This document shows, one piece after another, positions 11,943 to 56,411 of a stretch of DNA of 64,000 bases (position 1 is the first letter of the stretch; every line of letters starts with the position of its first letter). Source of the stretch: Trypanosoma brucei (taxonomy: Eukaryota); the NCBI GenBank assembly GCA_000002445.1, contig CH464491.1:1920001-1984000 (forward strand), given 5' to 3'. Below the pieces are notes generated by a model. The model saw only the letters and a program-made list of their open reading frames with translations. It was not told where the DNA came from and did not search any database. Both the position numbers and the translations under genes were made by a program.

Positions 11943-12170
11943 CCTTCACCCCTTTGGTAAGATATCTAACTAACTGGTCCTATACTGACGCAGAATGCGG
12001 AATATAAAACAAGATTACGGCGAAATTTGAATTGAAAGATTTTTTCCAGAAAAAAGAGAGGAGTGCAGAAAAAAAAAAAAAGAAGAGCAGCTTACAATGT
12101 TAAAAAAATGCTTTCACAACTTTCCCCTCGTTGAAATGCATGGCAGTTTTAACTGATAGCCAACCGTCCT

Positions 12171-19670: not shown

Positions 19671-21542
19671 TCACACTGAAGCGTGCGCGGAACCCGTTTC
19701 TGAAAGTTTCTGCATCAATTTTTTCGCCTCAGCTGATCCAACAACCTTTACGCTCTTTGCCTGATTCAGTGCGGCCTCAAGAGCGGGTTGAAGCTTTTCC
19801 GGATCAGCGTAGAGCATCGCTCGCTTTTGAAGTCCATCAATAATGATTTTACTCGCACTGGAACCAGAACCGACCACAACTATGTCCACAGAAGAGAGAT
19901 TAAAAGCGCTTGGCCTAACGGGATGGGATGCAAACACGTCTTTAGCCTTCGGAGACAAGAGATGTCCACCTGCCGCCGCCAGCGCTGTCACATCTTCCGT
20001 GTACGAATGTTTCCTCTTGTAGCCGAAACCAGATACATGGCGACGGCCGTAGTGACGGTGGGAGCGAGCATGAGGCATACCAACACGGCATGGAAGCGGT
20101 TTGTGAACACGATCGAGACTCTCTTCAACCAGGTCATGCGCACACGCCTCCACTTTACTCTTGGGAGCCGACACCACGTCCCACGCGCGAGAAATCCACC
20201 CGTCGCCTATCCGGTGGTGCCGTGCACCAAATATGTACTTCGAACTTCGGAGAATATCAGCCTCTCGTTCATTTTCACAAACAACTAATGTAAGGTGCTG
20301 CGCATCGGGACTAAGTATGCTCTCTGCTACCAGTGTGAGAAGACCTTTGTCATCAGCATAAAAGCCCCAACGCGCACAGAGGAAAGCGGTGGCATCAAGC
20401 AAAATGTCACAGCTTGGTTCTGCCGCAACAACGGCTTTCATAGGAATGCTATAGGGTTCCAGCGCTATAAACTTCGGGTGCTCAAGCCCCAAATCGCGTG
20501 GCCGCGGACCACCGAATTCCTCCACAATACGAGGACTCTCAAAATCCCAACTAGGAGCGTGATAAACAAGCACTCCCGGCCGCCGCCAACCCCATTCATC
20601 AATGGGAGACTGGGTGATGCGCTTCGACAGCATGATTTCCTGTTGTGCAACGTAGTTAAACTTGCGTATGGCTGCCAGTGAGGCGAAGTAAGCATGCGTT
20701 GGGTTATCGGTGATAATACGATACGGTGTGTTTGTTGATGGATGGCTTCCGAAGACGCCATCAATGAGGTAAAACCTCAAACCCTGTCCCAAGTGGTACT
20801 GTATCTCCCTTACGACGCGCTTGCCGTGAAGTCCATCGATTACCTTGAAACCGGGAAGTTCTGGATTCTTCAGCCGGCGATGCATCTGATGTTCCGGTGT
20901 ATGTGGAAACATGAAGTACTGTCGCGGCCTTTTCTGCTCTGCCTGATTGTTGCAGTTGTAGTAATAGTCCACAGACATGGCACCCGCTTTGTTGTGGCGT
21001 CTTCCCCATGCGCGACCTCGAACCTCATATGGCCGCAGATTATACTCTCCAACACCATACGTATAGCGCCAAACGCCCGACCACATACCTGCATTTGCAT
21101 AGTCGCCTACCTGTGACCAATTCGAAACCAGGGTGCTGCTGTTCGCGTTCCACCACGGACCAGGGTCCTCGTTTGTCTTGAGGAAAAGTGTTAGTGAATT
21201 ATAACCCCATTGGTACATGGTGCGGAGGTAATTCTTTGCTGGTGAACCAGGTGAAAGACGCGGGGCAACCTCGTGGCGGAAAATAGGTTTTCGCCGTTCT
21301 TCCTCTGCATCGGGGTTGCAGCAAATTTCATTTAGAATGGACATCTGCCCCGCGCTGTGGCCCGCTTGCGGCTTGAGAGCCTCCTGCATGTTGGCATACC
21401 GCACCCCGCGCCGCTGCGAATGATGAAGGAGTGCCACGCAGCTGTCACATGCGGTTAGTCGTACACCAGCACCGGAGAGGACTCTACGAAGCATACGTGC
21501 AGCCGATTCACTCAAACTAAATAAAACGTAAAGCGGCGACAA
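19671..21542 (-). CDS. hypothetical conserved protein (623 aa)
   Basis: Long uninterrupted ORF with balanced composition. No confidently recognised motif. Confidence 0.6.
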   Translation of the reverse strand: MSPLYVLFSLSESAARMLRRVLSGAGVRLTACDSCVALLHHSQRRGVRYANMQEALKPQAGHSAGQMSILNEICCNPDAEEERRKPIFRHEVAPRLSPGSPAKNYLRTMYQWGYNSLTLFLKTNEDPGPWWNANSSTLVSNWSQVGDYANAGMWSGVWRYTYGVGEYNLRPYEVRGRAWGRRHNKAGAMSVDYYYNCNNQAEQKRPRQYFMFPHTPEHQMHRRLKNPELPGFKVIDGLHGKRVVREIQYHLGQGLRFYLIDGVFGSHPSTNTPYRIITDNPTHAYFASLAAIRKFNYVAQQEIMLSKRITQSPIDEWGWRRPGVLVYHAPSWDFESPRIVEEFGGPRPRDLGLEHPKFIALEPYSIPMKAVVAAEPSCDILLDATAFLCARWGFYADDKGLLTLVAESILSPDAQHLTLVVCENEREADILRSSKYIFGARHHRIGDGWISRAWDVVSAPKSKVEACAHDLVEESLDRVHKPLPCRVGMPHARSHRHYGRRHVSGFGYKRKHSYTEDVTALAAAGGHLLSPKAKDVFASHPVRPSAFNLSSVDIVVVGSGSSASKIIIDGLQKRAMLYADPEKLQPALEAALNQAKSVKVVGSAEAKKLMQKLSETGSAHASV

Positions 21543-21598
21543 CGGGAGGGAAAGAAGAAGAGAACTAACACCCGTGCCAACGTATACCTAACTTGTTC

Positions 21599-21618
21599 AT
21601 ATATATATATATATATAG
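21599..21618. repeat. (AT)n microsatellite
   Basis: atatatatatatatatatag read directly. Confidence 0.9.
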
Positions 21619-23125
21619 AAATATGTAAGAAGAAGGACGGTGCATTAATGTGCAAAGGGGATGAACATGCAACACGTTTTGTTGCTGCAGGTGTTTGTGT
21701 GTATATGTGTGAGGCCAAAGTAGTTATTGCTCCACCAGTGACAATTAAACAGCTGTAGATGCTCCTGCATGGGTCTGTAATGCGTGATGAAATGCGAGGC
21801 GCATCCCACTGTTTGGTCACGTTTTGCGCCTGTTCCTAGGAAGACATTAAAGAGCGCCCATTAACCGCAAGAGAAGGATTAAAATAAAAAAAATAAATAC
21901 GAAAAAAAAACAGACAAAACACTGATTTGTAAGGAAGTTAACTCGTCATCCACCCACAAAAACATTCGCGCCGTTTGACAGTTAGAGACCATAAAGTGCA
22001 CAACCAAAAGTATGCGTTTCTAGAGTTGAGCTGCGTACGCTGTCCTACACGGAGTTAACCAGGGGTTATTTCGGACTTAGGTTGGAAAAAAAATTTTACT
22101 CTCAAAAGCAAAACAAAATAAGACAAGAAGAAATAAAAACGGCATGACACTACGAACATCGACACCTTATTCCTCTGTGTAGAGAAGGGTAAAGGAGAAG
22201 GAAAATGGAAGCCACCCGCAACTCACAACATTGCATGTGGTTATACGGGGCGGAAAAGACAAACACAGAAGTATGGGATGATTTTTTTTCCCCCCCCCGT
22301 TAGTGGTGATGAAGCGAGATGAGAATAAACGCGTTCGGTTACTCTGTGCGTTCATCTTCACTTTCTTTCCTCAAGAGGCGCATCATCTTTTCAATGTAAG
22401 AAAATGTTATCGCGCACGCACTCAGCAGTATGAAAGAATTCCGGGGAGCAATTTGCATGCCCTCTCCCCGATATCCTCCCCTCAGGCACGCTTAGAAAAG
22501 TTATATGAGTAAATGTTAAAAAAAAAAAAACAAAGGCATCATAAAGTCGTGCACACCTCTATCTTCTTCCCTTTTATCTCCTTTTCTTTTCTTTTCAAGG
22601 TAAATATATTAATCCGGCTTCTTTCCCCTCTTTCTTGTTATTATTTGTCTAATGTAACACCAAAGACCTGAATCCTTCTTAACACGTCGCCACTGCATCA
22701 GAGAGACGTGATCACACACGCTACAGAACGCAGGGGAAAAACATAAATATGTGCCCACACTTGCATGTTACAAAACGTGAAAAAGATGGATGCTTATGAA
22801 AAAAATAAAATAAAATTATGAACGAAACCTCCGTAGCGAGTTGGCGCGCGGTTAGTAACCCCCATTTTTCTTTTCCGCGGCGCAGCAAATGGGTAATTGG
22901 CCGCGGAGCAAGCGACTCTAAAAGAAGAAAAAATACACCGCTCACGAAATAACTGGCGTGGAGGAAGTGTAGGAGCAAAAAAAATAAAATAAAATAAAAA
23001 TAACAATAGATAATGAACGGTTTGAATTTTGGCAGTGAGTATAAAAAAAAAACAGAAAAGGCAAACGGTACAGTGATGGCGGCTGTCGCGCCGCAGGTAG
23101 CTGCACCTCATCACTTTTCCCGCCA

Positions 23126-23155
23126 ACACACACACACACACAGACACAGACAGAC
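23126..23155. repeat. (CA)n/(CAGA)n microsatellite
   Basis: acacacacacacacacagacacagacagac read directly. Confidence 0.9.
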
Positions 23156-23430
23156 GGAGTCGATAATTACACATCTTTGCTGCAGCATCAACCATCCCAT
23201 CTTCTGGTTTTCCATATGGCACCTTTCCCCTTCCTCTTTTCCTGACACATCGCTGCTGCAATGTAATGCTTTAATTTTACACCAACGACAACGATGGAAT
23301 ATTGCCGCGTTACATATTTTCTGCGCCCCACTACTGTGGACTCCCTCCACACACAAGCACAGAAGCCACTTGCATTGATGTCACCAATACCACTATTCCA
23401 CCACTGTGGTGATATATTTTTATGCCAAGC

Positions 23431-25257
23431 TCATGCAATCGTGGGGTTCCACCGTCTCGCGTGGTAAGTAGATTCTTGCACTTGGAGACAACCCTCCCCC
23501 GCTGGCGACGCATTTGCTTCACTGTAACTTATCAGCGAGTCGTACGGTGTGTTATTTGCCATTGGTGCTCTTTCCACAATATGCTCACGCGTTACCGGGT
23601 GGCCCCATGACTTGCACTGCCACGCAGAAGGCGGGCCAGCCGCCGGCGCCGGTCGATGCAAATCAAAAGGTAGTGGTGAAGTCGGTGCACTGCAGCCTCC
23701 AGGACACTTTTGAGACTCAGACGAGTTCATTACTTCACTCCTCTGCTTTGCGACATCCTGCCGGATCATTTTTTTCACACGGAGGCGCAGCTCCGATACG
23801 GTGGGGCGGTGCTCTGGAAGAGGAGAAAGCATCCACTGCAAAATCAATCGCCACGACTCAGGCACAACGTCGGGAATCACCACTGGGGATTGAAGTGTGT
23901 TTTGTATGTCCCCAATTGTTTTGAATGGAACCGATCCAACAAGTAGAGTGTAGAAGGTGACACCGAGAGACCAAACATCCATGGCGAACAGAAGTTGCTT
24001 CCGGACATCTGACTTTCCGCTTCTTCCGTTATGAACACTGTTAGCATTATTGGTGCCGTCAGCGCCCACATCACCCACGCAGGGTGATGGATCAACGCTG
24101 CAAAATACTTCCGGGGGCATAAACAACGGAGTCCCCTCGAAGCGGTGCAAACACATTTCGTCATCTCCGAGAATTGCCGCAACACCAAAATCAGAGATAA
24201 ACGCGCACTTCTTACTGTTGACGAGTATATTTTCAGGTTTGATGTCACGATGCACGATGCCGTGCCGCTGCAGATACTCCATTCCGGCGAGAATCTGGCG
24301 CGCATAATTAGTTAAGTCCTCAGGTGGGATCGGATCACAGTTCCCTTCTCTGTCTAGGCGGGCGATCGGGCCGTTGTCGATGTATTGCATGACAATGTAT
24401 AGCTTTTCAGTATCAGGATCATCGATAACCTCAAACAATGAGACAATACTCTTGTGTCGTAATTGCTTCATTACTCTGATTTCCCGCTGTAGAGCCTCCA
24501 TCCGAGCTGTTGCTGAATTACAAGCAGTCTCAATAGCTCGTCTTTTCTCCCTCGGTCGCGGGATAACTTTAATTGCTACGGACTCGTTACGCGAGAGACT
24601 GTACGCCAGCCGCACCTTACCTGAAGTTCCCTTTCCAACACTCTTCAGCAGAGCATATTCATTCAATATCGTGGTACCCTCAATCCAGTGCGATACGGAC
24701 GCATGTTTTGTGACCATGTCACCTCGCGGTATTAATAATGGCAATTTCCATTCCTCTTTAGATGAGTCATCACTACGCATAGAAAGTGATCCCAGCGGCC
24801 GCATAGCGCTGTAGTCTTCCGGATGAAGCGATGCCGGTGTTGGGGTGTCGGCGCACTCCGCCTGTTCGCTCATTTCCAGCGCTCTGGTTTGTGGCAGCAA
24901 GGCACTCAAGTCACTGAAAACATCAACACCATATACTGACAATGGCCATATGCCAATTTTACCTCCACCCATATATGTTGACAGCACCTGCGATTCTTTT
25001 GAGCGTGACGGGCTCGTTAATTCCTCGCCGCTTCGGTTGTGCGGTTTTGTACGAGTGGCTCGCAAGCGTTCTCCTACTGCAAGTTTTTGTGGTTCTGCAG
25101 GGGTACCTCCAGTTGATTCGCTCCCTTTGCTGTTAACATATTGGCTCCGTTCATCTCGTTTTGCCGAGTATACAGGAAGTCGCGCAGGAGCCGTGCCCAC
25201 ATCCGTCCATGAAAAAAGTAATGAGGAATCCTTCCCATCACCCTTGAAGGTGTTCAT
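23431..25257 (-). CDS. serine/threonine protein kinase, CaMKK-like (paralogue 2)
   Basis: Gly loop VGKGTSGKV, catalytic HRDIKPENIL, DFG, APE-like PPEV and DVWSLGVTFYTLL. The CaMKK-type signature LFEVIDDPDTEKLYIVMQYIDNGPI is present. The track ORF extends to 25332, but its first 25 codons (MFFACFVCFLLLLLLLFFSSSS) are translated poly-T spacer, so Met at 25255-25257 (MNTFKGDGKD) is the preferred start. Confidence 0.8.
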   Translation of the reverse strand: MNTFKGDGKDSSLLFSWTDVGTAPARLPVYSAKRDERSQYVNSKGSESTGGTPAEPQKLAVGERLRATRTKPHNRSGEELTSPSRSKESQVLSTYMGGGKIGIWPLSVYGVDVFSDLSALLPQTRALEMSEQAECADTPTPASLHPEDYSAMRPLGSLSMRSDDSSKEEWKLPLLIPRGDMVTKHASVSHWIEGTTILNEYALLKSVGKGTSGKVRLAYSLSRNESVAIKVIPRPREKRRAIETACNSATARMEALQREIRVMKQLRHKSIVSLFEVIDDPDTEKLYIVMQYIDNGPIARLDREGNCDPIPPEDLTNYARQILAGMEYLQRHGIVHRDIKPENILVNSKKCAFISDFGVAAILGDDEMCLHRFEGTPLFMPPEVFCSVDPSPCVGDVGADGTNNANSVHNGRSGKSDVRKQLLFAMDVWSLGVTFYTLLVGSVPFKTIGDIQNTLQSPVVIPDVVPESWRLILQWMLSPLPEHRPTVSELRLRVKKMIRQDVAKQRSEVMNSSESQKCPGGCSAPTSPLPFDLHRPAPAAGPPSAWQCKSWGHPVTREHIVERAPMANNTPYDSLISYSEANASPAGEGCLQVQESTYHARRWNPTIA

Positions 25258-26978
25258 TGATTTGTTGGAGGATGAAGAAAAAAACAACAACAACAACAAC
25301 AACAAAAAACAAACAAAGCACGCAAAAAACAAAAAAAAAGAGGAGGGAAGTGGTGGTTATCAGATAGCTAAATTGGTCACACCGTGCGATGGAGCCAAAA
25401 GCTTTCTGTACTTGCTCTTACGAGTATTTTTTCTCTCCTATGATCTTTTCTTCTAATTTGCCGCAGGTTGATTTCGGCTGTTTAAAATTAAAAACTATAG
25501 TCGCACAGCAAACGTACGCCGACCGTTCGTAGGCGCTGATGAAGATATGGAAAGGGTGGAAAGAAAAAAAAAGAAGAGAGAAGTCAGATAAGGTATTTTT
25601 AGAGTGGTATTTCTTGACATTGCAGAAAAGTGGACATAACAAATCATTAAATAAATAAAGTAGAATAATCATAATCATAATAATAATACGAATAACAATA
25701 AGAGAGCCGATGCAAGAAAAGAAAGGAAAACAATTTTTTTCATAACAATATTCGACAGCATACAACTCTTTACCGTAGCACATACGCACACACGTAAAGA
25801 GGAAGGAGGCGGCATCTTCTCAACGGGCCTCCGCAGAAGTGAAGCATAGTGGCATCATTCTATGAACAGTATCGAAAGGAACTGCTTTTTTTTCTTTCTT
25901 TTTTCTTTAAAAAAGAAAAACCTCTTTCCTCATCTCTCCTCCAAACACGTTTTCGTTTTCGTCTTCAGCTTCCTTTTTTTTTTCCACATCCTCTTCACCT
26001 TTTCAATTACTCCAAAATTTATTTATTTTTTTAAATCCACTTTAACAAGGTGCGACCGCTTCTTTCCCTTTCTCATTTTAACAAAAAAAAATTAAATAAC
26101 TAAATAATAAAACCTCTCGTTCTCAAAACACGCACGGGGAACAGGCAAAATGAAGGGAGGAAAATACGGGCGGGTTACGAAGCCCATGAGCAATGGAGTA
26201 GATATAATAAGGAAATTCCAAGTGGACATGAGACAAACTCGTGTGTGTGTGTGTGTATCAGGTGAAACAAAGAAATCATACGTGTGTATTAAAAAAAAAA
26301 AACAACAACAACAAAAGAAAGTAAAATATTGGTATGAAACAAAAGGGAATGTGTATAGCTTTACATCAGTGTTCCTTTGAGTGCATGTGTGAATGTTCAA
26401 GTGGGTAACCGCTACTGTGTTAAGATGAATATATTTAAATTCTGCATCATCTTCCAACTTTTGTTCGGTTGTGATGCTCCGCTTCACCAGAAAACAGCGA
26501 CTGAAGTAATTCCGCACAATAAAATTTACTTTGACGTGTACGCTCCCCCCCCCCTCCCTCCCTTCTTTCCTTCCGTCCTTCTTTCCTTTATTATTATTAT
26601 TATTTTTTTTTTTTGGTTTTAACCTCGCTTATTCTCTTCCTTTTTTTCCCCCTTCTCCATTCTCCTCGTTACTCCGCACCCACCCCTTTTTTGTTTATTT
26701 ATTTCCCTTCTGTAACGTTGCAAAAAAGGCCCTTAAAATAAGGAAACAAAAACAGGACTTGAGACAGAGTGACAAAAAGAGAGAAATTGAACTAAAATCG
26801 GGTACAATAAGGGAATGAAGGGGGAAGAGGAAAACAAAACAAAACAAAACAAAGAAGAATGGGGACTATTTCTACATCATGACGATAATAAAAATAATGA
26901 TGATAATAATAAAACATCGCAGGATAACGACGCCCCTCAAAACCTTATAGTTCTAGCAACAGATACAAACACACAAAA

Positions 26979-27015
26979 ACAGCTAATTAACATCTTATTG
27001 ATGTTAATTAGCTGT
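26979..27015. repeat. perfect 15-bp inverted repeat (hairpin, 7-nt loop)
   Basis: acagctaattaacat cttattg atgttaattagctgt read directly. Confidence 0.9.
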
Positions 27016-27678
27016 GTATTCCCCTCGTTTCGTTCCCTTTACTTCTTCAGAATTTCCTCTTTTTTTTTGTTTCCCCCTCCTTCCTAATCGTCCATTCGCT
27101 TGGTGTTTATTCATTATTTCCGTCGTATAGGCCTTTCGTGCTTACACATCAATAACCATTCTTAATCATTTTTTCTTTTCTTTTCTTTTTTCTCCTTCTT
27201 AAAAAAAAAAATTAACCACCTTTATTATTATTGTTATTATTATGATCTTACAATTATTGCAATAATGTCCTTCTCCCTTATATCTCTTTATCTTCTCATT
27301 CGCAATCCCGTAAGGCGTGTTACCACAACCTGTCACTACCACTTTTATTTTTATTATTATTATTATTATCATTTTTTTTCCTTGGAATTACAAGCAATTA
27401 TTCCCCTTCGTAATAATTAGATGAATTTGTGTTGTCTATTTATTCGCACACAATTAAAAAGGAAAAAAAAAGCAAAAAAACGGAAAGGCAGCACAAACCT
27501 AAACATATACATCTTACTTCTTCCTCTTCCTCTTTCTTTCTTTCTTTTTTTTTAAAAAAATGTTTCCTCCCGTCCCCCTTCTCATTCTTTTCTTTTTTTT
27601 TTTGTACGCATTGTTAATAATGGCATATTTCCCCACGTTTAAGTTCCTCCATCACAACTTTTGATACGAGAAACATTT

Positions 27679-27709
<31 letters not shown>
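27679..27709. repeat. (CA)n-(TA)n compound microsatellite
   Basis: cacacacacacacacatatatatatatatat. Confidence 0.9.
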
Positions 27710-28204
27710 TTTTTTTTATATACACATATATGTATATATATTTTAATTTAAATGTATATGCCACGCTACCATCAACGCGCACATCTTCATGAAATAAAAA
27801 ACTAAAAAAAAATCCACCAAAGCAAAAAAAAAAAAGAAAAGAAAAGAAAAGGAAGAGGCGGGAGGGGGGAGGGGAAAAAAATAAAAAAATACAAATGAGC
27901 ACTACTCCAAAAAGGCGGCGGCACTCATGTACGAAACCTTCCATTCTTCCATACAAACTCTCTTTTCCCCTTTTCCTTTACTTATTTCTTTGAAAACGTC
28001 TTTTATCTTTTCTTTCTTTTTTTTTTTTACATAAACTGCAGCAGTAGCAGTAGTGGTGGTGGTGGTGGTGTTTGTGGGGGAGAAGAAACATTAAAAAAAA
28101 AACAGAAACAGAAAAAAAAACAAAAGAGAAGATGATTGAGGGGAGCATCATCACGAAAAACGCAAGCATACGAAAAAAAAAATGTTAGCAGCTATATGAT
28201 TCAG

Positions 28205-28231
28205 TATATATATATATATATATATATATAT
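28205..28231. repeat. (TA)n microsatellite
   Basis: tatatatatatatatatatatatatat. Confidence 0.9.
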
Positions 28232-29372
28232 GTTTGTATAGCGTAAATCACAAGAACAAAAATACAAAAAAAAAAAGAGCAAAAAAAAAAGCCTTCAGCC
28301 CCAAGCACAGAAGGCGTTCGTTACATCAAACAGATTAAATAAGAGGAAAGGAAGGAGGAGAATGAGAGAGGGAGAAAAAAAAAAAGAAACTACAAGTGGA
28401 GATACAATAAATGACAAAATGAAAAGAAGAAGGAGGAAACCCACCGCACTGCAAAGGAAAAAGGAAAAAAAAGGAAAAAAAGGGAAAAGGGAAGGGAGGG
28501 AAAAAAAGAAACAAAAGAAATTCACTCAGGAGAGTTGGAGGAACGCACACGCACCCACCCCCCCAAAAAAAAAGAAAAAAAAAGGAAACAAGAAAGAGAA
28601 AGCCATACCACAACAGTACCCTTTCACTTGGTCTTTCAATCCCCTTTCTTGTTTTCTTTTTTTTTTTTTCACCCTCTCTTCGTTCCTCTAACGTTGGCGA
28701 TAACAAAAAAAAAGAACAGGTAAATGTGAGGGAGGAATGGAGGAGGAATAAGAAGGAAAAAAAAAGAAAACAAGAAAGCAACAACATCAATACTGTAAAC
28801 AGAACCAACCGTCATGCATTCGCACCTACAACAGCGCACCGAGGCATACCACAAGGGCTAATTTACAAATTACAATAACAAGGCAAAAAAAAAAAAGAAA
28901 GCGGGAAATTAATGGGGTTTCAACCACACTCCCGTCCGCTCAACTACGGCACTGAAAAGAAAAAGAAAGGACAACAAAATATCGCCTACACGATGCACAC
29001 ACAGTTCTTCTTTTTTTTTTTTCGCCCATTTTTTTTTTCCACGGCTCTGCATTCTAAACTCCATTTTCCTTTTCGACGATCTCTCGCGTTCGCCACCGTT
29101 GTAAGTTTCACATGCGTTTATACGGGGTACGTGATGGAAAAATAAAAGAAAAAAATGAGTGCTCGCATTCCATTCTTTAAAGGTAGTAGTAATAGTAGCA
29201 TTATGACCAGGGAGGTAAAAGGAAAAAAAAGAAAATGGGAGGGGAACAATAAAAGAAAAGAGCAGAGGAAGACTACGATTTATTGAAAGGCCCGAAAGCG
29301 GTCAAACCACACTTGCTGAAACCCAACGCTTTTCTTCCAACTATCTACCAACCCAACTTCCCATTAAATAAC

Positions 29373-31448
29373 TCACTCCTCGTCTCCTTTACAAGGCGTC
29401 TCTCCATCCCGTTTCTCTGGAGTACGAGGGAATAATGAGCCACATAATCCCGGCAAACAACCCGCTTCCTCTTTTTTACCTTTCGCACATCTTTGCTTTG
29501 ATAAGGAGTGCACTCCTAATTGTGGGGCGGAATTCCTCTTTATAGCACAGTTGCTCGTGAGAACCTCCTGATTTGGCAACGTACCACTGCCACCGTCAAA
29601 CTCCCTGTTGTGCACATCCCTTGGGGTGGTCGCCACCGACGGCGAGACATTTGTTTGATTTCCCCGTGGTTCGATGGGAGGTAATTCAACTTTTTCACAA
29701 AAAGGCATGTCATGACATTCCAAAGGGCTTCCACCGGGAGAAACAACACGCGTCGAACGCCGGCTCAGCCGTCTTACTGGTTTCATAACGGTACCTCCCC
29801 AATTCGAACCTGAGAGGGGTTCGACATCACCACTTTTTGTGGTTGCATTGAGTTTTAGCGAGGCGTCGAAGGGATTGTCAATCCACCTAGGACTCATGGG
29901 AAGCGAAATTGCAACCGAATTATCGCCGCTGCGTTCCCTTAACAACCACGAAACATCTTCAGCATCTTTTTCGGGTTCGGTTAATGTCAAGGCTTCCTCT
30001 ATATCCTTCTCCGTAACGCAAACCAAGGTGTCGTCACACGCGTCACCAGAACTCTTATTTTTGTGGATCATTGCCTTAAATGCTTCGACAGCATGGCATG
30101 CGGTTATGCGGTTCTTGGGGTCGCGATCAAGCATCCTACGAAGCAAATTTTCCCAGTCTTCCCCATACTCAGTTGGTATCACAGGAAGGTTGGAGTCCAT
30201 AATATCGTCTATATTAGAGAAGGGAAGTCTTCCGGTAAGAAGAATGTACAATGTGACACCCATTGCCCATACATCAACTGGTTTTGCATACGACCTATCG
30301 CCTTTCCAGATCTCAGGGGCAATAAACAATATTGTCCCCTTTGTGCCCTGTATAGGCATCCCTGGTCCACATGAGGCGTTGGCTCTACTGGCTGCTAAGC
30401 TTTCTTGCATTATTTGTTCTACCCTCTCCCGTGCGCTTACGTCAAAAACCTCAGCCACGCCAAAGTCCGCCAAATACGCTCTTCCTTCTTTACTAACGAG
30501 TATATTTTCCGGTTTGATATCTCGATGCGCTATTTTGTTTTTGTGCAGATAGTCTAATCCAGAAAAAATCTGCCGAGCGTACTTCGCGAGTTGTCCAGGA
30601 GGAATAGGTGTGCAGACCTCCTCCTCGGGATCGCCAGTGGGACTACACCTAATGCGGCCGATAGGTCCACCGTCGATGTATTTCATTACAAGGTAAATTT
30701 TTCTAGCACTGGGATCGTCAATAACCTCGTACAGTGGAACGATATGTTTGTGCTTCAGCTTCTTCATGAGCGCAATTTCCCGCTGCAAGGCACTAAATCT
30801 CTCCTGCGCTGCCGTTTGCAGGCCGAACCGCGTCTTTGCCACGGGTCGACACACTTGCTTAATAGCCACAAGCGTATCGGTCTGGGTGTTGTACCCCAAC
30901 TTCACCTTACCGAACGATCCCCTTCCGATTTCTTTGAGCACCTGGTAATTGTTTATAAACTTCCCGCCGTCATCTCTCTTATCCACTCGAAGTTCACCCG
31001 TAATGCGTGCCGACCGCTGCCGTGCAAGGCTACAACTGCTATTGAGTGAAGAAGTGCAGGACGCATTTGTTGCATTTGGAAGTACCTGTATGGGACAAAC
31101 TCCACATAGCGCCCCACCACGGCATGACCTGGATCCGGCTGTCTTTCGACTAGCGAAACTAACCAATGATATTATTTCGGGATCCGTGGCACCTTCACAC
31201 TCCCCATCAGGGAGACGGGAGGGGCATCGTAAATCCTGCCCTTTATTTTTCGCTTGCCAAATTTCAGAGAGACAAGATTCATTTCTAGTGATCTCCTTAT
31301 TGTACGAGTCACTACACCCATTGTCGGCCCCTTTAACCATATGAGACGAAAAACCGCGGCCTCTGTCCAGGCTGGCATTACTTCTTTGTTTCGGTGTCGC
31401 CATCGACAAAAAGTGGGGGAGCTGCTCCGTGCATTCCTCCTGAGTCAT
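29373..31448 (-). CDS. serine/threonine protein kinase, CaMKK-like (paralogue 1)
   Basis: IGRGSFGKVKL, VAIK, HRDIKPENILV, DFGVAE, APE (IAPEIW) and DVWAMGVTLYILL. CaMKK signature LYEVIDDPSARKIYLVMKYIDGGPI. The track ORF runs to 31604, but its N-terminal 52 codons include a translated (AT)n microsatellite (LYIYIYID), so Met 31446-31448 (MTQEECTEQ) is preferred. Confidence 0.8.
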   Translation of the reverse strand: MTQEECTEQLPHFLSMATPKQRSNASLDRGRGFSSHMVKGADNGCSDSYNKEITRNESCLSEIWQAKNKGQDLRCPSRLPDGECEGATDPEIISLVSFASRKTAGSRSCRGGALCGVCPIQVLPNATNASCTSSLNSSCSLARQRSARITGELRVDKRDDGGKFINNYQVLKEIGRGSFGKVKLGYNTQTDTLVAIKQVCRPVAKTRFGLQTAAQERFSALQREIALMKKLKHKHIVPLYEVIDDPSARKIYLVMKYIDGGPIGRIRCSPTGDPEEEVCTPIPPGQLAKYARQIFSGLDYLHKNKIAHRDIKPENILVSKEGRAYLADFGVAEVFDVSARERVEQIMQESLAASRANASCGPGMPIQGTKGTILFIAPEIWKGDRSYAKPVDVWAMGVTLYILLTGRLPFSNIDDIMDSNLPVIPTEYGEDWENLLRRMLDRDPKNRITACHAVEAFKAMIHKNKSSGDACDDTLVCVTEKDIEEALTLTEPEKDAEDVSWLLRERSGDNSVAISLPMSPRWIDNPFDASLKLNATTKSGDVEPLSGSNWGGTVMKPVRRLSRRSTRVVSPGGSPLECHDMPFCEKVELPPIEPRGNQTNVSPSVATTPRDVHNREFDGGSGTLPNQEVLTSNCAIKRNSAPQLGVHSLSKQRCAKGKKEEAGCLPGLCGSLFPRTPEKRDGETPCKGDEE

Positions 31449-31917
31449 TATACCCAGACAGTGCGTATTCCTTTTTTTTTTTGATTGCTGCGTCCTTCTT
31501 TGCGTCCTAAAGTTATCAATATATATATATATATATAGCACGTTTCCTCTCTTCTTTGAGTTGTAAACGCGCGTAATGGTCTTGGCGCCGCCGCTGTACT
31601 GCAAAATGCGGGCGTGTAAGTGTCCTTAGAGATACAAATAATCAAATAAATAATTATATAATTATATATATATGTACCCCCGCGAGGAGTCGGGATATAA
31701 CTTTCTTCCCTCCCTTATTTTTTTTTTCGTACCCACACACACCCTTTTCGTTTTTTCTTCGATTCCCTTACCAGATAAAAGAATGTATATAAGTTTTTTG
31801 TGTAATTACAATTAAGTATTTAGAACTGAAGGTATTCCCTTTTCTTTCCCTTAACTATGTGATGATACGTTTTCCCCCTTTTTACGCTGACGCACTTCCC
31901 TTTACTCACCTATATGT

Positions 31918-31942
31918 TGTTTTGTTTGTTTGTTTGTTTGTT
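31918..31942. repeat. (TTTG)n microsatellite
   Basis: gttttgtttgtttgtttgtttgttc. Confidence 0.9.
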
Positions 31943-32496
31943 CGTCTATTATTATTATTTCTTTTTTTTTTTTTCGTATTCTCGATGTCGGTTCTAGTCG
32001 CCAAATAAACTTCCCACTGCTTAAGCCTTCGTGTGTTCAAGTCAGTACACCGCCTTTACTCTTCCAGCCTCCGGTGTCGTGGTGGCCAAAACAATGAAAA
32101 CACTAATGAAAGCTCGCTAAATCGGATTATTATGCCAACAGTAGCAGTATCAATAACAGAAAAATGTATATTGTAATTATTTCTGCTTCAGCTACCGACA
32201 GGTTTGCAGTAGGCGGCGAATGAAAGAGGCAACCACTTGACAAAGCAGTTGCGCCTATGCGTGTGCGCTTATAAAAAGATATTGATGTCAAGAGGTAGAG
32301 AGAAGGCAATGAAAGGAAAGGAAAGGGAAGAAAGAAAAAAAAAAAAAAAAAGAGGCATAAAGGAAAGTAGAGTGTTGAGCAGTTTTAGTTACTCGGTTAG
32401 TTGTGAAAACAGTGGCAGTAATAATGGCAGAGTCCAGACACTTAACCGCATGAATATGAGGGGCGCCCCCGTAAGAGCATGTAAAAGGAGACATGT

Positions 32497-32522
32497 ACAC
32501 ACACACACACACACACACACAC
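32497..32522. repeat. (AC)n microsatellite
   Basis: acacacacacacacacacacacacac. Confidence 0.9.
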
Positions 32523-33309
32523 CGATATATGTAAATATACGGGTATGTATGCATGATGAGAGGTCTCACTAACTCCATCACAACAGTCAGCGAACATTCA
32601 AAATTTAACAAGCGTTATGGTTCTGCCTCAACAGGAAAATACGGTTCTCTCGCATCTTCGATGTTACAACACCGGCCTATTCTTAGAAACTAGGGACACC
32701 CAAATGAATAGAAGAGAGGGAGAAAAAAAAATATAATGAAGCAGCAGAACAACCAGTCAAGGAGAGAAAAAGGTCAATGAAAGAGGTACACGAAAAGAAA
32801 CAGGCAAATTCAGCAGAGCCACCGAACGTGTAAAATCAAATGTGGGAACAGGGAAGAAGGGTTGTGCAGGTGAGCTGAGCAGTTGAGAGCAAAACACTTT
32901 GAGGCGAGCTGAACACATCGCATTTACGGGCTAACGGGCACAGTAGGTAAGATACTGTAAAAATGGCACGCGTCGCCCCCTTCTTCTCCTCCCACGCAGA
33001 AAATGAAAGAGGATTATAGAGGTGTATGACCAGCGTCACTTTCCTGTTGTGTCACACACATGGCCATTGGGTGATCAATCCACGCTGTTTTTTTTTTTTG
33101 CGATCTCCCTTCTCGCCTCCCTCTTCTACCAATGCTCCTCTACCTCATATCAGGCCTCTTCTTCGCTCTTTACTTCCCATTCCACCCTTCTCCTCCTTCT
33201 TCCGCGGTTCTTTGCCTTCCCCCACCTTTAAAATTTTTTTTTCTTCCTTTGTTTGTTTTCCTCCTCACCAAATTCTGTCCACATTCTTTTTCCCACAGGT
33301 GCACGCGCC

Positions 33310-34053
33310 TCAATCCTCTTCGGCAAGGCGCCTTCTCCTTGCGGCCTCCTCCTCGCGCTCTTTTTCTACCTCAACGACGAACCTGTGCAATTCGGTGTCG
33401 CTCATGTAAGCCGCCTTACCGCGCTCCAGCACCAGGAGTTCAATGTTTTTCGACCCACTTTCAACAGCCTCAAGAAGCGCCTTAATTGCAAAGTGCACGC
33501 AACGATCCCGCGTCATGCCATCCTGATAGTTTTTTTCCATAAATTCGAGCACAACCTTGTCATTTCGGCCGATTGCTGCTGCATTCCACGCTGAACTCGT
33601 TCCAGACGGCTCCGTCTTCCACAACTGCGGCTGCCCATTTTCATTAAAGCCACCAATGATGGTTGAAACACCGTACGGTCTGCTGCCGCTTGATTGCGTA
33701 GAACGTTGCTGTACCCTTGCCACGTACCGCACGAGCAGGTCAACGTCAATGGCGTCTTCGTAGCTCAAGCGGAAGCGTTGACATTCCAGTTGTGCGTGAT
33801 TCACAACCACACGGGCGTCGGCAGAGAGACCTGCGGAAGCGAGATAAATATGCTCGTCAAGTTTGTATATTTTGCGTGTCGTACGGCTGTCCTGCAGTTT
33901 TTGCACTGATTTTTTCTCCACAGCAAAGATAATGCTGTCCTTCCCTTTCACACCAACTGCACAGAGACCCTTGCGAACGGCCTCTTGCGCATACTCAACC
34001 TGGAACAAATGTCCATCGGGACTAAACACAGTAATTGCGCGATCGTAGCTCAT
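33310..34053 (-). CDS. 20S proteasome subunit alpha type-7 (alpha4/PSMA7-type)
   Basis: MSYDRAITVFSPDGHLFQVEYAQEAVRKG is near-identical to the PSMA7 N-terminus. The rest aligns along the whole alpha-subunit fold (GGFNENGQPQLWKTEPSGT..., KALLEAVESGSKNIELLVL). Start placed at the second Met of the track ORF, which extends 14 codons further to 34095. Confidence 0.9.
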   Translation of the reverse strand: MSYDRAITVFSPDGHLFQVEYAQEAVRKGLCAVGVKGKDSIIFAVEKKSVQKLQDSRTTRKIYKLDEHIYLASAGLSADARVVVNHAQLECQRFRLSYEDAIDVDLLVRYVARVQQRSTQSSGSRPYGVSTIIGGFNENGQPQLWKTEPSGTSSAWNAAAIGRNDKVVLEFMEKNYQDGMTRDRCVHFAIKALLEAVESGSKNIELLVLERGKAAYMSDTELHRFVVEVEKEREEEAARRRRLAEED

Positions 34054-39286: not shown

Positions 39287-40546
39287 TCACAGTTCTCCCC
39301 TCTTGTTCACCTTGAGCAAGTTATGCCACATGTTGTGAGACTCATCAATCACCTTCATTGCGTATTCCTTGTCCTTGAATTCACCATCGAAAGCAAAATG
39401 GCTCGCTTCACCACCCTGACAAATCTTGTACACACGGAACCACTCACGGATGGCATCAAGACATCCAGGAAGGAACTTCGGTACGTCATGGATGTCTTTC
39501 ATGAAACGACATATAGGATCGTTGTGGGATATGCAAACAACTTTCCAATCCATCTTGCCCTCGTCAATCATTCCAAGCACACCTAGCACTTTTACTGCAC
39601 TCACCTGACCGACTTTGAATTGCGTCATCCCGATCTCAACAGCATCTACGGGGTCATTGTCACCAGTCACCCCAGCCTCGAATAACACCTCTGTGCTCTC
39701 CCATGTCTGTGGAAACGCACCATAGTTCCACATCATATCACCATGCTTGTAGAACCGAGGTACGCCATTCTTGATATCCTGCTTTATGGGATTAAATGAC
39801 TCTCCAGTCGCGATCTCAAACTTTGCGCGCGTCCACTTAGGGATCTCACAGATGAAATTGTAGCGATTCATTGGTGTCGCCTCGGGCTTTGTTCGCACAA
39901 GATCACGTACATACAGCGGGATGTCATGCCACGGCGATACCTGCCGCTCCCTACCGGTTTCCAAATCCCTGAAGAAGTACAGTACGCGGTAGCTGGGTGT
40001 GTACATTTCACCTTTCTCGTGCACAACCAACTGCTGCTGGTGATACGGCATGGAGAAATCGGCAGACACCATCGAGAAACATTTCGTCCTGGAATGTACA
40101 GGATGGGAACACCACCACGCCCAAAACTTCTCAAATGTCACGTGACCATCGATAGCATTGATTTCAGCTTTCATGGCCTTCACATCCCCATCGCTCATGT
40201 TACGGCCCAAGTACCTGCATACCTCTTCCACTTTGTCAGGCGTGAGGTAGCCAAGATGCGTCACATCGAATGCTGAGAATAATCGACTCATGATCTTTTT
40301 GATCATTGGTTGAGTGAAATCATCCTTATCGTAGGCGGCAAGATCCAGTTCGCTCACCTTCCGGTCAACCGCCTCCTGAATAGGCTCTGCGACGTCGGCC
40401 TCAGAACCCCTGCCGGTACTTATGTTGGTACCAAGTGATGCCGAGAAAGGCAGCCCCGCCACTTCGGCAGAAGCCAAATCTTGGGGAGACGTTCGATCAC
40501 TGCGCGAATCCACACCGTGTGTGTTGTTCATATCTACAGTTGGCAC
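39287..40546 (-). CDS. VSP1: soluble inorganic pyrophosphatase with N-terminal EF-hand domain (vacuolar/acidocalcisomal VSP1 type), copy A
   Basis: 419 aa. N-terminal EF-hand-like region (DKDDFTQPMIKKIMSRLFSAFDVTHLGYLTPDKVEEV; NMSDGDVKAMKAEINAIDGHVTFEKF). C-terminal family I PPase core (NFICEIPKWTRAKFEIATGE, KQDIKNGVPRFY, GDNDPVDAVEIG, VKVLGVLGMIDEG). 8 aa differences to copy B, clustered near both ends. Confidence 0.9.
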   Translation of the reverse strand: MPTVDMNNTHGVDSRSDRTSPQDLASAEVAGLPFSASLGTNISTGRGSEADVAEPIQEAVDRKVSELDLAAYDKDDFTQPMIKKIMSRLFSAFDVTHLGYLTPDKVEEVCRYLGRNMSDGDVKAMKAEINAIDGHVTFEKFWAWWCSHPVHSRTKCFSMVSADFSMPYHQQQLVVHEKGEMYTPSYRVLYFFRDLETGRERQVSPWHDIPLYVRDLVRTKPEATPMNRYNFICEIPKWTRAKFEIATGESFNPIKQDIKNGVPRFYKHGDMMWNYGAFPQTWESTEVLFEAGVTGDNDPVDAVEIGMTQFKVGQVSAVKVLGVLGMIDEGKMDWKVVCISHNDPICRFMKDIHDVPKFLPGCLDAIREWFRVYKICQGGEASHFAFDGEFKDKEYAMKVIDESHNMWHNLLKVNKRGEL

Positions 40547-55623: not shown

Positions 55624-56411
55624 TCATGCGGTGGCCTTTACCCTACGATTTGTTAGCTTTCAAGCATTTTTATGTGTTTCACGGAGGAAGCGGAGTGGAT
55701 TATGTTCCGGAGTTCACACAGCCAAGAAAATTGCGGTTTCACCACGAGCGCAAAGCTCATGAGTACAAAGATGCTGAAGGGAAAACACCAATATATAACT
55801 AACGAAAAGCAGTAAAGGGGACCGAGGGGGGGGTGTGCGGCGAGCTGAAAACATCAAAAAGAAAACACATGGCTGGTCGGAGGAAGGCGGCGGAGAGCAC
55901 CGCAACCTTTTGCCGCTCGCGAGAGTCTGACAAACAAAGGGAGCAATAAAGAAAAAAACAGAAAAGGAGGAAAGGTGGAGAACATGGGAGAAGACGAATG
56001 TGCGCATCCCGACAACTGAATGTCACTTCCCAATCCCTATACACACGCGTGCACACGCACTCACCTACGGTAATCTCCTTCCCTCTCCCCTTGCCCGACC
56101 TCTCCTCATGCGCTAGATTGCCTTCTTTATCCGTCTTCATTTTGCCCTGCTTTGTTTGTGTGGGCATGAGTCTTCCCTTCTTTAGATATAGCTCTACCAC
56201 CGCTCCACTACGATTCTTTGTAATTTTCCAACTGTTGACACCATACTTCCATAATAAAAGGGTTGAAGCTAGGGCGCACCAGAAAGCAAACAATAACATT
56301 TCCAATGAACAGTCGAACAGTGGGAAGAAAACGGTGAATAGGGAAGGAATGACCAGATTAAATTTTCCGGACGACTCTCTACCCCACACTTGGTAGAACC
56401 ACCTCCAGAAT

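What the first reader, a model, noticed from the sequence alone, without database searches (positions are those of the whole stretch)
23431..31448. Two paralogous CaMKK-like kinases separated by a 4-kb gene-free low-complexity spacer
Both kinases carry the CaMKK-family hallmark EVIDDP...(K/D)xLY(L/I)VM(K/Q)YID(G/N)GPI and share domain order. They are clearly related but far diverged (an ancient duplicate). They are not adjacent. The ~4 kb between them (25333-29372) has no credible ORF on either strand, which is atypically long for a dense polycistron. Kinases in trypanosomatids are often post-transcriptionally regulated through very long 3' UTRs, so the spacer may be a giant regulatory UTR of the upstream kinase (29373-31448), or it may hide a non-coding RNA.
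Basis: partly seen in the sequence, partly recalled or inferred. Interest (0 to 1): 0.5.

Follow-up and report, generated by a model that had tools for sequence, protein, structure and literature searches.

The report
Two known trypanosome kinases, long spacer
These are two already catalogued CaMKK-family kinase genes of Trypanosoma brucei chromosome 11, and the 4.1 kb of non-coding, repeat-rich DNA between them looks like the very long untranslated region typical of trypanosome kinase genes, so the finding is real but ordinary.

Summary
The window is T. brucei TREU927 chromosome 11. The two ORFs are Tb927.11.6990 (23431-25257, minus strand, 608 aa) and Tb927.11.7010 (29373-31448, minus strand, 691 aa). 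Both have been listed as 'Other/CAMKK' in published kinomes since 2005.

Confirmed:
- They share 39% identity over the kinase domain.
- Their best solved-structure relatives are human CaMKK1/2.
- They fall in two orthologue clades that each contain Trypanosoma and Leishmaniinae, so the duplication is ancient.

The spacer (25258-29372, 4115 nt, 35% GC) is the longest inter-CDS gap in the window, about 7 times the median.
- It has no credible ORF. The reference annotation places a 150-aa ORF there (Tb927.11.7000), but it is a translated pyrimidine tract. Its frame breaks between T. brucei subspecies, and Kolev 2010 detected no transcript for it.
- No Rfam family, tRNA, conserved block or unusually stable fold was found.
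- The spacer evolves faster than neighbouring intergenic DNA.

The region downstream of the first kinase at this locus is also the longest intergenic stretch in T. vivax, T. theileri, T. cruzi and L. mexicana.

Best reading: transcribed non-coding sequence, mostly the long polypyrimidine-rich 3' UTR of Tb927.11.7010. This is a known property of trypanosome kinase mRNAs. Transcript ends could not be mapped here.

The parts
29373..31448 (-). K2 = Tb927.11.7010 (old ID Tb11.02.4860), 691-aa CaMKK-family protein kinase; the upstream gene in the direction of transcription
   Evidence: Exact match to XP_828773/EAN79661. CDS size of 2076 nt matches the entry in PMC5568443 S2 Table. The published bloodstream-form phosphosites S61, S602, S604 and T608 fall on S, S, S and T in this translation. 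Pkinase E 9e-53. Best PDB hits are CaMKK2 and CaMKK1.
25258..29372 (-). 4115-nt non-coding, low-complexity spacer. Inferred to be mostly the 3' UTR of K2, plus the 5' UTR of K1 and possibly ORF-less processing by-products
   Evidence: GC 0.355. Longest inter-CDS gap in the window. No credible ORF. No Rfam or tRNA hit. No block conserved with T. vivax, T. cruzi or T. theileri. 2.98% substitutions and 8 indel events/kb against T. b. gambiense, compared with 0.44-0.58% in the flanking CDS.
27819..29272 (-). Polypyrimidine-dense first ~1.55 kb of the spacer: 13 tracts of 18-71 nt, each followed by an AG. These are potential alternative trans-splice and polyadenylation signals
   Evidence: 20 tracts of at least 15 nt make up 16.8% of the spacer, against 0-9.6% in all but one other inter-CDS gap of the window (the 231-nt gap 11940-12170 reaches 16%). 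The AT and GC skews agree.
28335..28787 (-). Annotated ORF Tb927.11.7000 / Tb11.02.4850 (150 aa, 'hypothetical protein, conserved'); judged spurious
   Evidence: Coordinates match Kolev 2010 Table S2, 'annotated ORFs not producing a detectable transcript'. 62% of residues are F, L, S or P. Frameshifting homopolymer indels occur in T. equiperdum and T. b. gambiense. The T. b. gambiense call is 132 aa with a different C-terminus. It is not called in T. equiperdum. There is no homologue in the syntenic spacers of other species.
27876..27891 (-). Two adjacent sense-strand UAUUUUUU motifs (the RBP10 recognition motif), about 1.5 kb downstream of the K2 stop codon
   Evidence: The motif definition and pull-down data are from PMC5568443. 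K2 mRNA was enriched only about 2-fold, below that study's 3-fold cutoff.
25549..25583 (-). 35-nt polypyrimidine tract followed by an AG 11 nt downstream; inferred trans-splicing signal for K1
   Evidence: There is no AG between the more proximal tracts (25267-25350) and the ATG at 25257. Logan contigs for K1 begin about 220 nt upstream of the ATG but show no spliced-leader sequence, so this stays an inference.
23431..25257 (-). K1 = Tb927.11.6990 (old ID Tb11.02.4830), 608-aa CaMKK-family protein kinase; the downstream gene
   Evidence: Exact match to XP_828771/EAN79659. CDS size of 1827 nt and the 3' UTR sequence published in PMC5568443 match the window directly after the stop codon. Pkinase E 1e-48. 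Best PDB hits are CaMKK2 and CaMKK1.
21709..23430 (-). Annotated 1722-nt 3' UTR of K1, with four UAUUUUUU motifs; the mRNA is bound by RBP10
   Evidence: PMC5568443 supplements give the length as 1722/1723 nt with 4 motifs, and eluate/unbound ratios of 3.7 and 4.1. The four sense-strand motifs are found at 21888, 22800, 22928 and 22979.

Best explanation
The region holds two ancient paralogues of the CaMKK kinase family, Tb927.11.7010 followed by Tb927.11.6990. They lie head to tail in one RNA polymerase II polycistron on T. brucei chromosome 11. The 4.1 kb between them is transcribed but non-coding. It is divided up by coupled trans-splicing and polyadenylation. Most of it (up to about 3.6 kb) would be the long, polypyrimidine-rich 3' UTR of Tb927.11.7010, probably with several alternative poly(A) sites. 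The last 230-280 nt or so would be the 5' UTR of Tb927.11.6990. Such long UTRs are thought to keep kinase mRNAs scarce and to offer many binding sites for regulatory RNA-binding proteins. Shown here: gene identity, family, paralogy, age of the duplication, absence of coding or structured-RNA signals, and conservation of the length but not the sequence of the downstream region. Inferred: which transcript the spacer belongs to, and any regulatory role.
For: Identity and family:. Ancient duplication: the NJ tree has K1 and K2 clades that each contain Trypanosoma and Leishmaniinae, and reciprocal tblastn gives about 53% identity to the orthologue against about 38% to the paralogue. Non-coding. No ncRNA. 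RNA covers the spacer and behaves like K2 mRNA: in PMC5568443 S2 Table the unbound read density over 28335-28787 is 28-43% of that over the K2 CDS. Its RBP10 eluate/unbound ratio (2.0 and 1.7) matches K2 (1.8 and 2.2), not K1 (3.7 and 4.1). Kolev 2010 found no separate transcript for the ORF. Length is conserved: the region after the first kinase is the longest intergenic stretch of the locus in T. brucei (4115 nt), T. vivax (3039), T. theileri (3059), T. cruzi (1829) and L. mexicana (1998). Known precedent: kinase and RNA-binding-protein mRNAs often have multi-kb 3' UTRs against a median of about 400 nt (PMC6597758). Internal polypyrimidine tracts in long 3' UTRs are kept from being used as splice signals by DRBD18 (PMC9380746).
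Against: No spliced-leader or poly(A) site was mapped here. The 13 strong polypyrimidine tracts followed by AG in the first 1.55 kb could instead truncate the K2 3' UTR to a few hundred nt and release the rest as ORF-less RNAs. Read density over the spacer is only about a third of the CDS density, although mapping in low-complexity sequence also lowers counts. The spacer is the fastest-evolving segment locally, so any function depends on length or composition rather than specific sequence. RBP10 binding of K2 mRNA is below that study's threshold.
Confidence: 0.6

Rival explanations
1. The spacer is mostly processed into one or more independent ORF-less, trans-spliced and polyadenylated RNAs (lncRNAs or processing by-products). 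Tb927.11.7010 would then have a short 3' UTR ending before the first used polypyrimidine tract.
For: There are 20 polypyrimidine tracts of at least 15 nt, 13 of them within 1.55 kb of the K2 stop codon, each followed by an AG. Clayton 2019 describes such extra processed RNAs from intergenic regions. More than 1400 lncRNAs are reported for T. brucei, according to the abstracts listed. Read density over the spacer is lower than over the K2 CDS.
Against: Kolev 2010 lists the only annotated feature there as having no detectable transcript. The RBP10 pull-down ratio of spacer reads tracks K2. There is no sequence conservation or structure. This rival is not mutually exclusive with the best explanation.
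Confidence: 0.25
2. The spacer contains a real small protein-coding gene, Tb927.11.7000 (150 aa).
For: It is annotated as 'hypothetical protein, conserved' in the reference genome, and a 132-aa version is annotated in T. b. gambiense. It lies on the transcribed strand. Some reads map to it.
Against: 62% of residues are F, L, S or P, translated from pyrimidine tracts, and GC is 0.37. Several indels that are not multiples of three separate T. b. brucei, T. equiperdum and T. b. gambiense, while the flanking kinases are at least 99% identical. It is not called in T. equiperdum. There is no homologue in the syntenic regions of T. vivax, T. cruzi or T. theileri. No transcript was detected for it.
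Confidence: 0.03
3. The spacer hides a structured small RNA gene (snoRNA cluster, tRNA, snRNA or an siRNA-generating hairpin).
For: There are sub-threshold Rfam 'miRNA precursor' matches at 28565-28786 (best 31.8 bits against a gathering score of 85) and a 27-nt, 93% complementary inverted repeat at 28644-28670 / 28752-28778.
Against: All Rfam hits are far below their gathering scores and come from poly(U)/poly(A,G) complementarity. The fold of 28540-28800 is no more stable than shuffled sequence (z = -0.68). There are no tRNAs. No trypanosome snoRNA family scored at E of 1 or better. There is no cross-species conservation.
Confidence: 0.03
4. The spacer is the decayed remnant of a lost gene (for example a third kinase copy) or of a mobile element.
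For: Gene content at this locus has changed during evolution. T. theileri keeps only K2, Leishmania keeps only the K1-clade gene, and Novymonas has an extra K2-like copy.
Against: blastx of the spacer against 125 related kinases gives no hit at E of 10 or better. There are no non-trivial repeats, only low-complexity families. The T. theileri spacer likewise shows no K1 remnant. Retroelement libraries were not available to search.
Confidence: 0.05

Closest known systems
Human CaMKK1/CaMKK2, and the wider CaMKK-like upstream kinases of AMPK/SNF1 (yeast Sak1/Tos3/Elm1, plant GRIKs; this wider grouping is from my own knowledge)
   Same: Catalytic domain with VAIK, HRDIKPEN and DFG. The CaMKK-specific block EV(L/I)DDP..(L/I)Y(M/L/I)V....GP(V/I). 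CaMKK2 and CaMKK1 are the top four PDB matches for both kinases, 5-6 orders of magnitude ahead of AMPK, SNF1 and MARK.
   Different: About 39-45% identity only over the N-lobe and core. The segment between the beta3 lysine and helix alphaC is roughly 13-15 residues shorter than the human Arg/Pro-rich insert. K2 has an insert of about 28 aa in the activation segment. K1 has an insert of about 39 aa after the APE motif. Both have long, unrelated N- and C-terminal extensions, and no recognisable calmodulin-binding segment was identified. Substrates are unknown.
Published T. brucei kinome entries Tb927.11.6990 (Tb11.02.4830) and Tb927.11.7010 (Tb11.02.4860), class Other/CAMKK (Parsons 2005, PMC1266030; Jones 2014, PMC3894213)
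   Same: They are these very genes, with exact protein matches and matching CDS lengths, UTR sequence and phosphosites.
   Different: Nothing. Those papers do not comment on the tandem arrangement or on the spacer.
Multi-kb 3' UTRs of trypanosome regulatory-protein mRNAs (RBP10 8.5 kb, ZC3H20-22 over 4 kb, DRBD12; kinases as a class)
   Same: Several kb, low complexity, many internal polypyrimidine tracts, downstream of a kinase gene, and containing RBP10-type motifs.
   Different: For this gene the 3' end has not been mapped in anything I could read. There are only two RBP10 motifs, and RBP10 enrichment is only about 2-fold.
T. brucei intergenic lncRNAs such as grumpy (PMC9200285)
   Same: It would be an ORF-less Pol II transcript arising next to a regulatory gene inside a polycistron.
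   Different: No evidence here for a discrete transcript, for conservation or for structure. The lncRNA catalogues could not be consulted because their supplements are not held.

Membership tests
CaMKK family (Other/CAMKK) | Complete eukaryotic protein kinase catalytic domain with catalytic motifs | tested here: met
   Pfam Pkinase E 1.1e-48 (K1) and 9.1e-53 (K2). VAIK, HRDIKPEN and DFG are visible.
CaMKK family (Other/CAMKK) | Closer to CaMKK1/2 than to any other kinase family | tested here: met
   The top four PDB sequences for both are CaMKK2 or CaMKK1 (E 4e-38 to 6e-33). The next families, SNF1, AMPK and MARK, score E 5e-31 to 6e-27. This was tested only against solved structures, not against a full kinome phylogeny.
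CaMKK family (Other/CAMKK) | Signature block EV(L/I)DDP...LY.V.....GP(V/I) following helix alphaC | tested here: met
   It aligns residue for residue with human CaMKK1 and CaMKK2.
CaMKK family (Other/CAMKK) | Arg/Pro-rich insert between the beta3 lysine and helix alphaC | tested here: inconclusive
   Both have extra residues with an RP motif (K1 has IPRPREKRR, K2 has CRPVAKTR). However, they align with few or no gaps to chain 6cmj_A, which has a shorter segment at this position, and need a gap of roughly 13-15 residues against wild-type-length chains.
CaMKK family (Other/CAMKK) | Autoinhibitory, Ca2+/calmodulin-binding segment C-terminal to the kinase domain | not tested
   No tool here scores calmodulin-binding sites. 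The PDB constructs matched cover only the kinase domain.
CaMKK family (Other/CAMKK) | Phosphorylates the activation-loop threonine of CaMKI/IV or AMPK/SNF1-type kinases | not testable with these tools
   This is a biochemical property. No published substrate was found for either gene.
CaMKK family (Other/CAMKK) | Assigned to the family in curated kinetoplastid kinomes | tested here: met
   Parsons 2005 supplement rows 91 and 93, and Jones 2014 supplement file 3.
Long regulatory 3' UTR of a trypanosome kinase mRNA | Physically part of the mature mRNA of the upstream CDS | not testable with these tools
   Only indirect evidence: read density and RBP10 pull-down ratio over 28335-28787 resemble K2, and no separate transcript was seen in Kolev 2010.
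Long regulatory 3' UTR of a trypanosome kinase mRNA | Multi-kb, non-coding and low-complexity, with internal polypyrimidine tracts | tested here: met
Long regulatory 3' UTR of a trypanosome kinase mRNA | Carries known regulatory protein-binding motifs, or is bound by regulators | tested here: inconclusive
   Two sense-strand UAUUUUUU motifs. RBP10 enrichment is 1.8-2.2-fold, below the 3-fold cutoff used in PMC5568443.
Structured ncRNA gene (Rfam families, tRNA) | Match to a covariance model at its gathering score, or a tRNA prediction | tested here: not met
   Best Rfam hit is 31.8 bits against a gathering score of 85. ARAGORN found 0 genes.
Structured ncRNA gene (Rfam families, tRNA) | Sequence or structure conservation across species, or a fold more stable than shuffled sequence | tested here: not met
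   Only microsatellite matches to other trypanosomes. Fold z = -0.68. Highest local divergence.
Protein-coding gene (Tb927.11.7000) | Reading frame preserved among close relatives, and homologues elsewhere | tested here: not met
   Frameshifting indels in T. equiperdum and T. b. gambiense, and no tblastn hit beyond low complexity in T. vivax, T. cruzi, T. theileri, Novymonas or L. mexicana loci.

The most novel reading that the evidence does not exclude
The unusually long, polypyrimidine-dense non-coding tract after the first CaMKK gene is kept long across trypanosomatids even though its sequence turns over quickly. It could be a regulated alternative-processing hub. Stage-specific masking or unmasking of its many internal splice and poly(A) signals, for example by DRBD18- or PTB-type proteins, would set the 3' UTR length and hence the dose of Tb927.11.7010. 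It might also release a lncRNA that acts on the neighbouring paralogue during differentiation.
Probability: 0.12. Interest if true: 0.4.

Novelty: already known. Interest (0 to 1): 0.12.

Why it matters
There is little new here. The two genes are catalogued CaMKK-family kinases, and long 3' UTRs on trypanosome kinase mRNAs are a published generalisation. Three by-products are modestly useful:
- Evidence that the annotated gene Tb927.11.7000 is spurious.
- The observation that the long region downstream of this kinase locus keeps its length, but not its sequence, from T. brucei to Leishmania.
- A record of lineage-specific loss of one or the other paralogue.

If CaMKK-like kinases are the unidentified upstream activators of trypanosome AMPK in quiescence and differentiation signalling, control of their dose through this UTR could matter. 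That link is speculative.

Tried and rejected
1. Rfam cmscan at E of 1 or better over 21000-34000, and ARAGORN over the whole window. Only far-sub-threshold plant and animal miRNA models hit poly(U)/poly(A) complementarity. The candidate hairpin at 28540-28800 folds no better than shuffled sequence.
2. blastn of the spacer against the orthologous spacers of T. vivax, T. theileri, T. cruzi and Novymonas. Only (TAA)n-type matches were found.
3. blastx of the spacer, and of the T. theileri spacer, against 125 related kinases to look for a decayed copy. Nothing was found.
4. Repeat search. Only low-complexity families were found, with no dispersed or mobile-element-like repeat.
5. Gene-specific 3' UTR, poly(A) or lncRNA data.
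   - Supplements of Siegel 2010, Guegan 2022, Bishola Tshitenge 2022 and the ZC3H28 paper are not held.
   - The Kolev 2010 tables that are held are truncated. They list no novel chromosome 11 transcript at 1.945-1.949 Mb, which proves nothing.
6. Logan contigs for K1 (L009, L010) were inspected for a spliced-leader junction. They start 218-226 nt upstream of the ATG but carry no spliced-leader sequence, so the result is inconclusive.
7. Exact look-up of the 150-aa ORF in the protein collection. It is not present.
8. Exact look-up of K2 on contigs of TREU927 itself. It is not on record. T. b. gambiense and T. equiperdum were used instead.

Full report
**What the window is.** Both kinase ORFs match proteins of Trypanosoma brucei brucei TREU927 exactly (XP_828771 and XP_828773). 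An annotated ORF in Kolev 2010 Table S2 (Tb11.02.4850, chromosome 11 v4, 1,948,335-1,948,787) coincides with window ORF 28335-28787. So window coordinate + 1,920,000 gives the chromosome 11 coordinate. All real genes in the window are on the minus strand, forming one Pol II polycistron.

**The two kinases.**
- K1 is 23431-25257 on the minus strand, 608 aa. The ORF extends to 25332, but the annotated start is the ATG at 25257.
- K2 is 29373-31448 on the minus strand, 691 aa.
- Each has a full protein kinase domain. They align at 39% identity over 332 residues, E 4e-64.
- K1 is Tb927.11.6990 (old ID Tb11.02.4830). Its CDS length of 1827 nt and its published 3' UTR sequence match the window directly after the stop codon.
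- K2 is Tb927.11.7010 (old ID Tb11.02.4860). Its CDS is 2076 nt, and the published bloodstream-form phosphosites Ser61, Ser602, Ser604 and Thr608 fall on S, S, S and T in my translation. The K2 protein is therefore expressed.
- Both are two of the four 'Other/CAMKK' kinases in the TriTryp kinome (Parsons 2005) and in the kinome RNAi screen of Jones 2014.
- Independently, the four best solved-structure matches of each are human CaMKK2 and CaMKK1, ahead of SNF1, AMPK and MARK by 5-6 orders of magnitude.
- The insert between the beta3 lysine and helix alphaC is shorter than the human Arg/Pro-rich insert. K2 has an extra ~28 residues in the activation segment, and K1 has ~39 after the APE motif. 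A calmodulin-binding segment was not assessed.

**Age of the duplication.** In a neighbour-joining tree of 26 relatives (no bootstrap), K2 groups with T. congolense, T. vivax, T. theileri, T. melophagium, T. cruzi, Novymonas and Lotmaria proteins. K1 groups with T. vivax, T. cruzi, T. conorhini, Leishmania and Novymonas proteins. Reciprocal tblastn gives about 53% identity to the orthologue against about 38% to the paralogue.

The K2-then-K1 tandem is present in T. b. gambiense, T. equiperdum, T. vivax and T. cruzi. T. theileri has only K2 at the locus. L. mexicana chromosome 11 has only the K1-clade gene there. Parsons places the K2 orthologue on L. major chromosome 35.

**The spacer: what is observed.** 25258-29372 is 4115 nt at 35.5% GC, against about 50% in the coding sequences. 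It is packed with microsatellites and homopolymer runs. It is the longest of 26 inter-CDS gaps in the window. The next longest (1936 and 1861 nt) are the other flanks of the same two kinases, and the median is about 570 nt. It also has the highest load of polypyrimidine tracts. There are 20 tracts of at least 15 nt, making up 16.8% of its bases. Thirteen lie in the first 1.55 kb after the K2 stop codon, each followed by an AG. A purine-rich centre follows.

**Is there a gene in it?** The reference annotation says yes: Tb927.11.7000, 150 aa, at 28335-28787 on the minus strand, 'hypothetical protein, conserved'. I judge it spurious, for these reasons:
- 62% of its residues are F, L, S or P, translated from pyrimidine tracts.
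- The homologous stretch in T. equiperdum and T. b. gambiense differs by many homopolymer indels that are not multiples of three. The flanking kinases are at least 99% identical.
- The T. b. gambiense gene call is 132 aa with a different C-terminus.
- T. equiperdum has no call there.
- No similar ORF exists in the syntenic spacers of T. vivax, T. cruzi or T. theileri.
- Kolev 2010 lists it among annotated ORFs that produce no detectable transcript.
- Every other ORF of at least 40 aa in the spacer is of the same low-complexity kind.

**Is there an ncRNA or a relic?** I found no sign of one.
- No Rfam family comes near its gathering score. The best is 31.8 bits against 85, from plant miRNA models hitting poly(U)/poly(A,G) complementarity.
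- There is no tRNA, and the candidate hairpin is no more stable than shuffled sequence (z = -0.68).
- No block is conserved with other trypanosomes.
- Against T. b. gambiense the spacer shows 2.98% substitutions and 8 indel events/kb. The two kinase CDS show 0.44-0.58%, and the other intergenic regions 0.7-2.2%. Part of the central peak may be misalignment within repeats.
- No trace of a decayed kinase copy was found.

**What it most likely is.** In trypanosomes every base between two coding sequences of a polycistron is transcribed. Polyadenylation of the upstream mRNA is coupled to trans-splicing of the downstream one (PMC6597758, PMC9380746).
- The two polypyrimidine tracts closest to the K1 ATG have no AG before the ATG. 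The likely K1 acceptor signal is therefore the 35-nt tract at 25549-25583, with an AG 11 nt downstream. That would give a 5' UTR of about 230-280 nt; this is an inference.
- Everything upstream of that, up to about 3.6 kb, is available as the 3' UTR of Tb927.11.7010.
- Indirect data support that reading. In the RBP10 pull-down of Mugo and Clayton 2017, unbound-fraction reads per nt over 28335-28787 are 28-43% of those over the K2 CDS. The eluate/unbound ratio there (2.0 and 1.7) matches K2 (1.8 and 2.2) rather than K1 (3.7 and 4.1).
- The spacer carries two sense-strand RBP10 motifs (27876-27891). The annotated 1722-nt 3' UTR of K1 carries four and is RBP10-bound.
- Clayton's 2019 review states that mRNAs for RNA-binding proteins and protein kinases often have 3' UTRs several kb long, against a median of about 400 nt. 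It proposes that length lowers abundance and multiplies regulatory binding sites.
- Internal polypyrimidine tracts in such UTRs are reported to be shielded from the splicing machinery by DRBD18.
- The main rival, not exclusive, is that some of the 13 proximal tracts are used. That would give K2 a short UTR and release ORF-less RNAs. I could not map transcript ends, so I put about 0.6 on the long-UTR reading and about 0.25 on separate RNAs.

**A small extra.** The region downstream of the first kinase is the longest intergenic stretch of the ~20-kb locus in every genome I fetched: T. brucei 4115 nt, T. vivax 3039, T. theileri 3059 (even without K1), T. cruzi 1829 and L. mexicana 1998. It is polypyrimidine-dense in each. 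There is no sequence similarity between them. Length and composition, not sequence, are what persist. These figures rest on other groups' gene calls and on one locus per species.

**Verdict.** No hidden gene or RNA was found. Interest is low.

Noticed in passing
window 28335-28787 (-): The reference gene Tb927.11.7000 ('hypothetical protein, conserved') looks like a spurious call. It is a translated polypyrimidine tract, its frame breaks between T. brucei subspecies, and Kolev 2010 detected no transcript for it. It is a candidate for removal from the annotation.
   Followed up: yes
L004 12218-15276 (T. theileri); L008 (L. mexicana chromosome 11): The paralogues have been lost differentially at this syntenic locus. 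T. theileri keeps only the K2 orthologue, with a 3-kb non-coding stretch where K1 would be and no detectable remnant. L. mexicana keeps only the K1-clade gene; Parsons 2005 places the K2 orthologue on L. major chromosome 35.
   Followed up: partly
L006 2408-3607, 10001-13597, 22902-23597 (Novymonas esmeraldas): Novymonas has two K2-like kinase genes plus a K1-clade gene on one contig, with 9.3 kb and no ORF over 264 aa between the second and third. Lotmaria also has two K2-clade proteins. This points to extra duplication in some Leishmaniinae.
   Followed up: partly
window 39287-40531 and 44121-45365 (-): Two copies of a 414-aa EF-hand pyrophosphatase, 98% identical, flank a DEAD-box helicase gene (41899-43551). 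One is presumably acidocalcisomal VSP1, Tb927.11.7060. This is a recent or homogenised duplication.
   Followed up: partly
window 27258-28257: The central part of the spacer shows 5.5-6.7% substitutions against T. b. gambiense, about ten times the CDS rate. This is probably microsatellite slippage and alignment noise in (TA)n, (CA)n and homopolymer runs.
   Followed up: partly
window 21495-23430 and 31449-33309: The other flanks of the two kinases (1936 and 1861 nt) are the second and third longest inter-CDS gaps in the window. The K1 3' UTR has four RBP10 motifs and its mRNA is RBP10-bound, which suggests developmental regulation of K1.
   Followed up: partly
window 55799-56551 and 56412-57353 (-): Two ORFs of at least 250 aa overlap by about 140 nt in different frames on the coding strand. 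This could be a start-codon mis-assignment or a frameshift. It was not examined.
   Followed up: no
L009/L010 (Logan contigs ERR7929164, ERR7929162): Two independent run assemblies of K1 from another T. brucei strain (609-aa variant) both begin within 8 nt of each other, about 220 nt upstream of the ATG (window ~25483-25491). This could reflect a nearby trans-splice site, but no spliced-leader sequence is present.
   Followed up: partly
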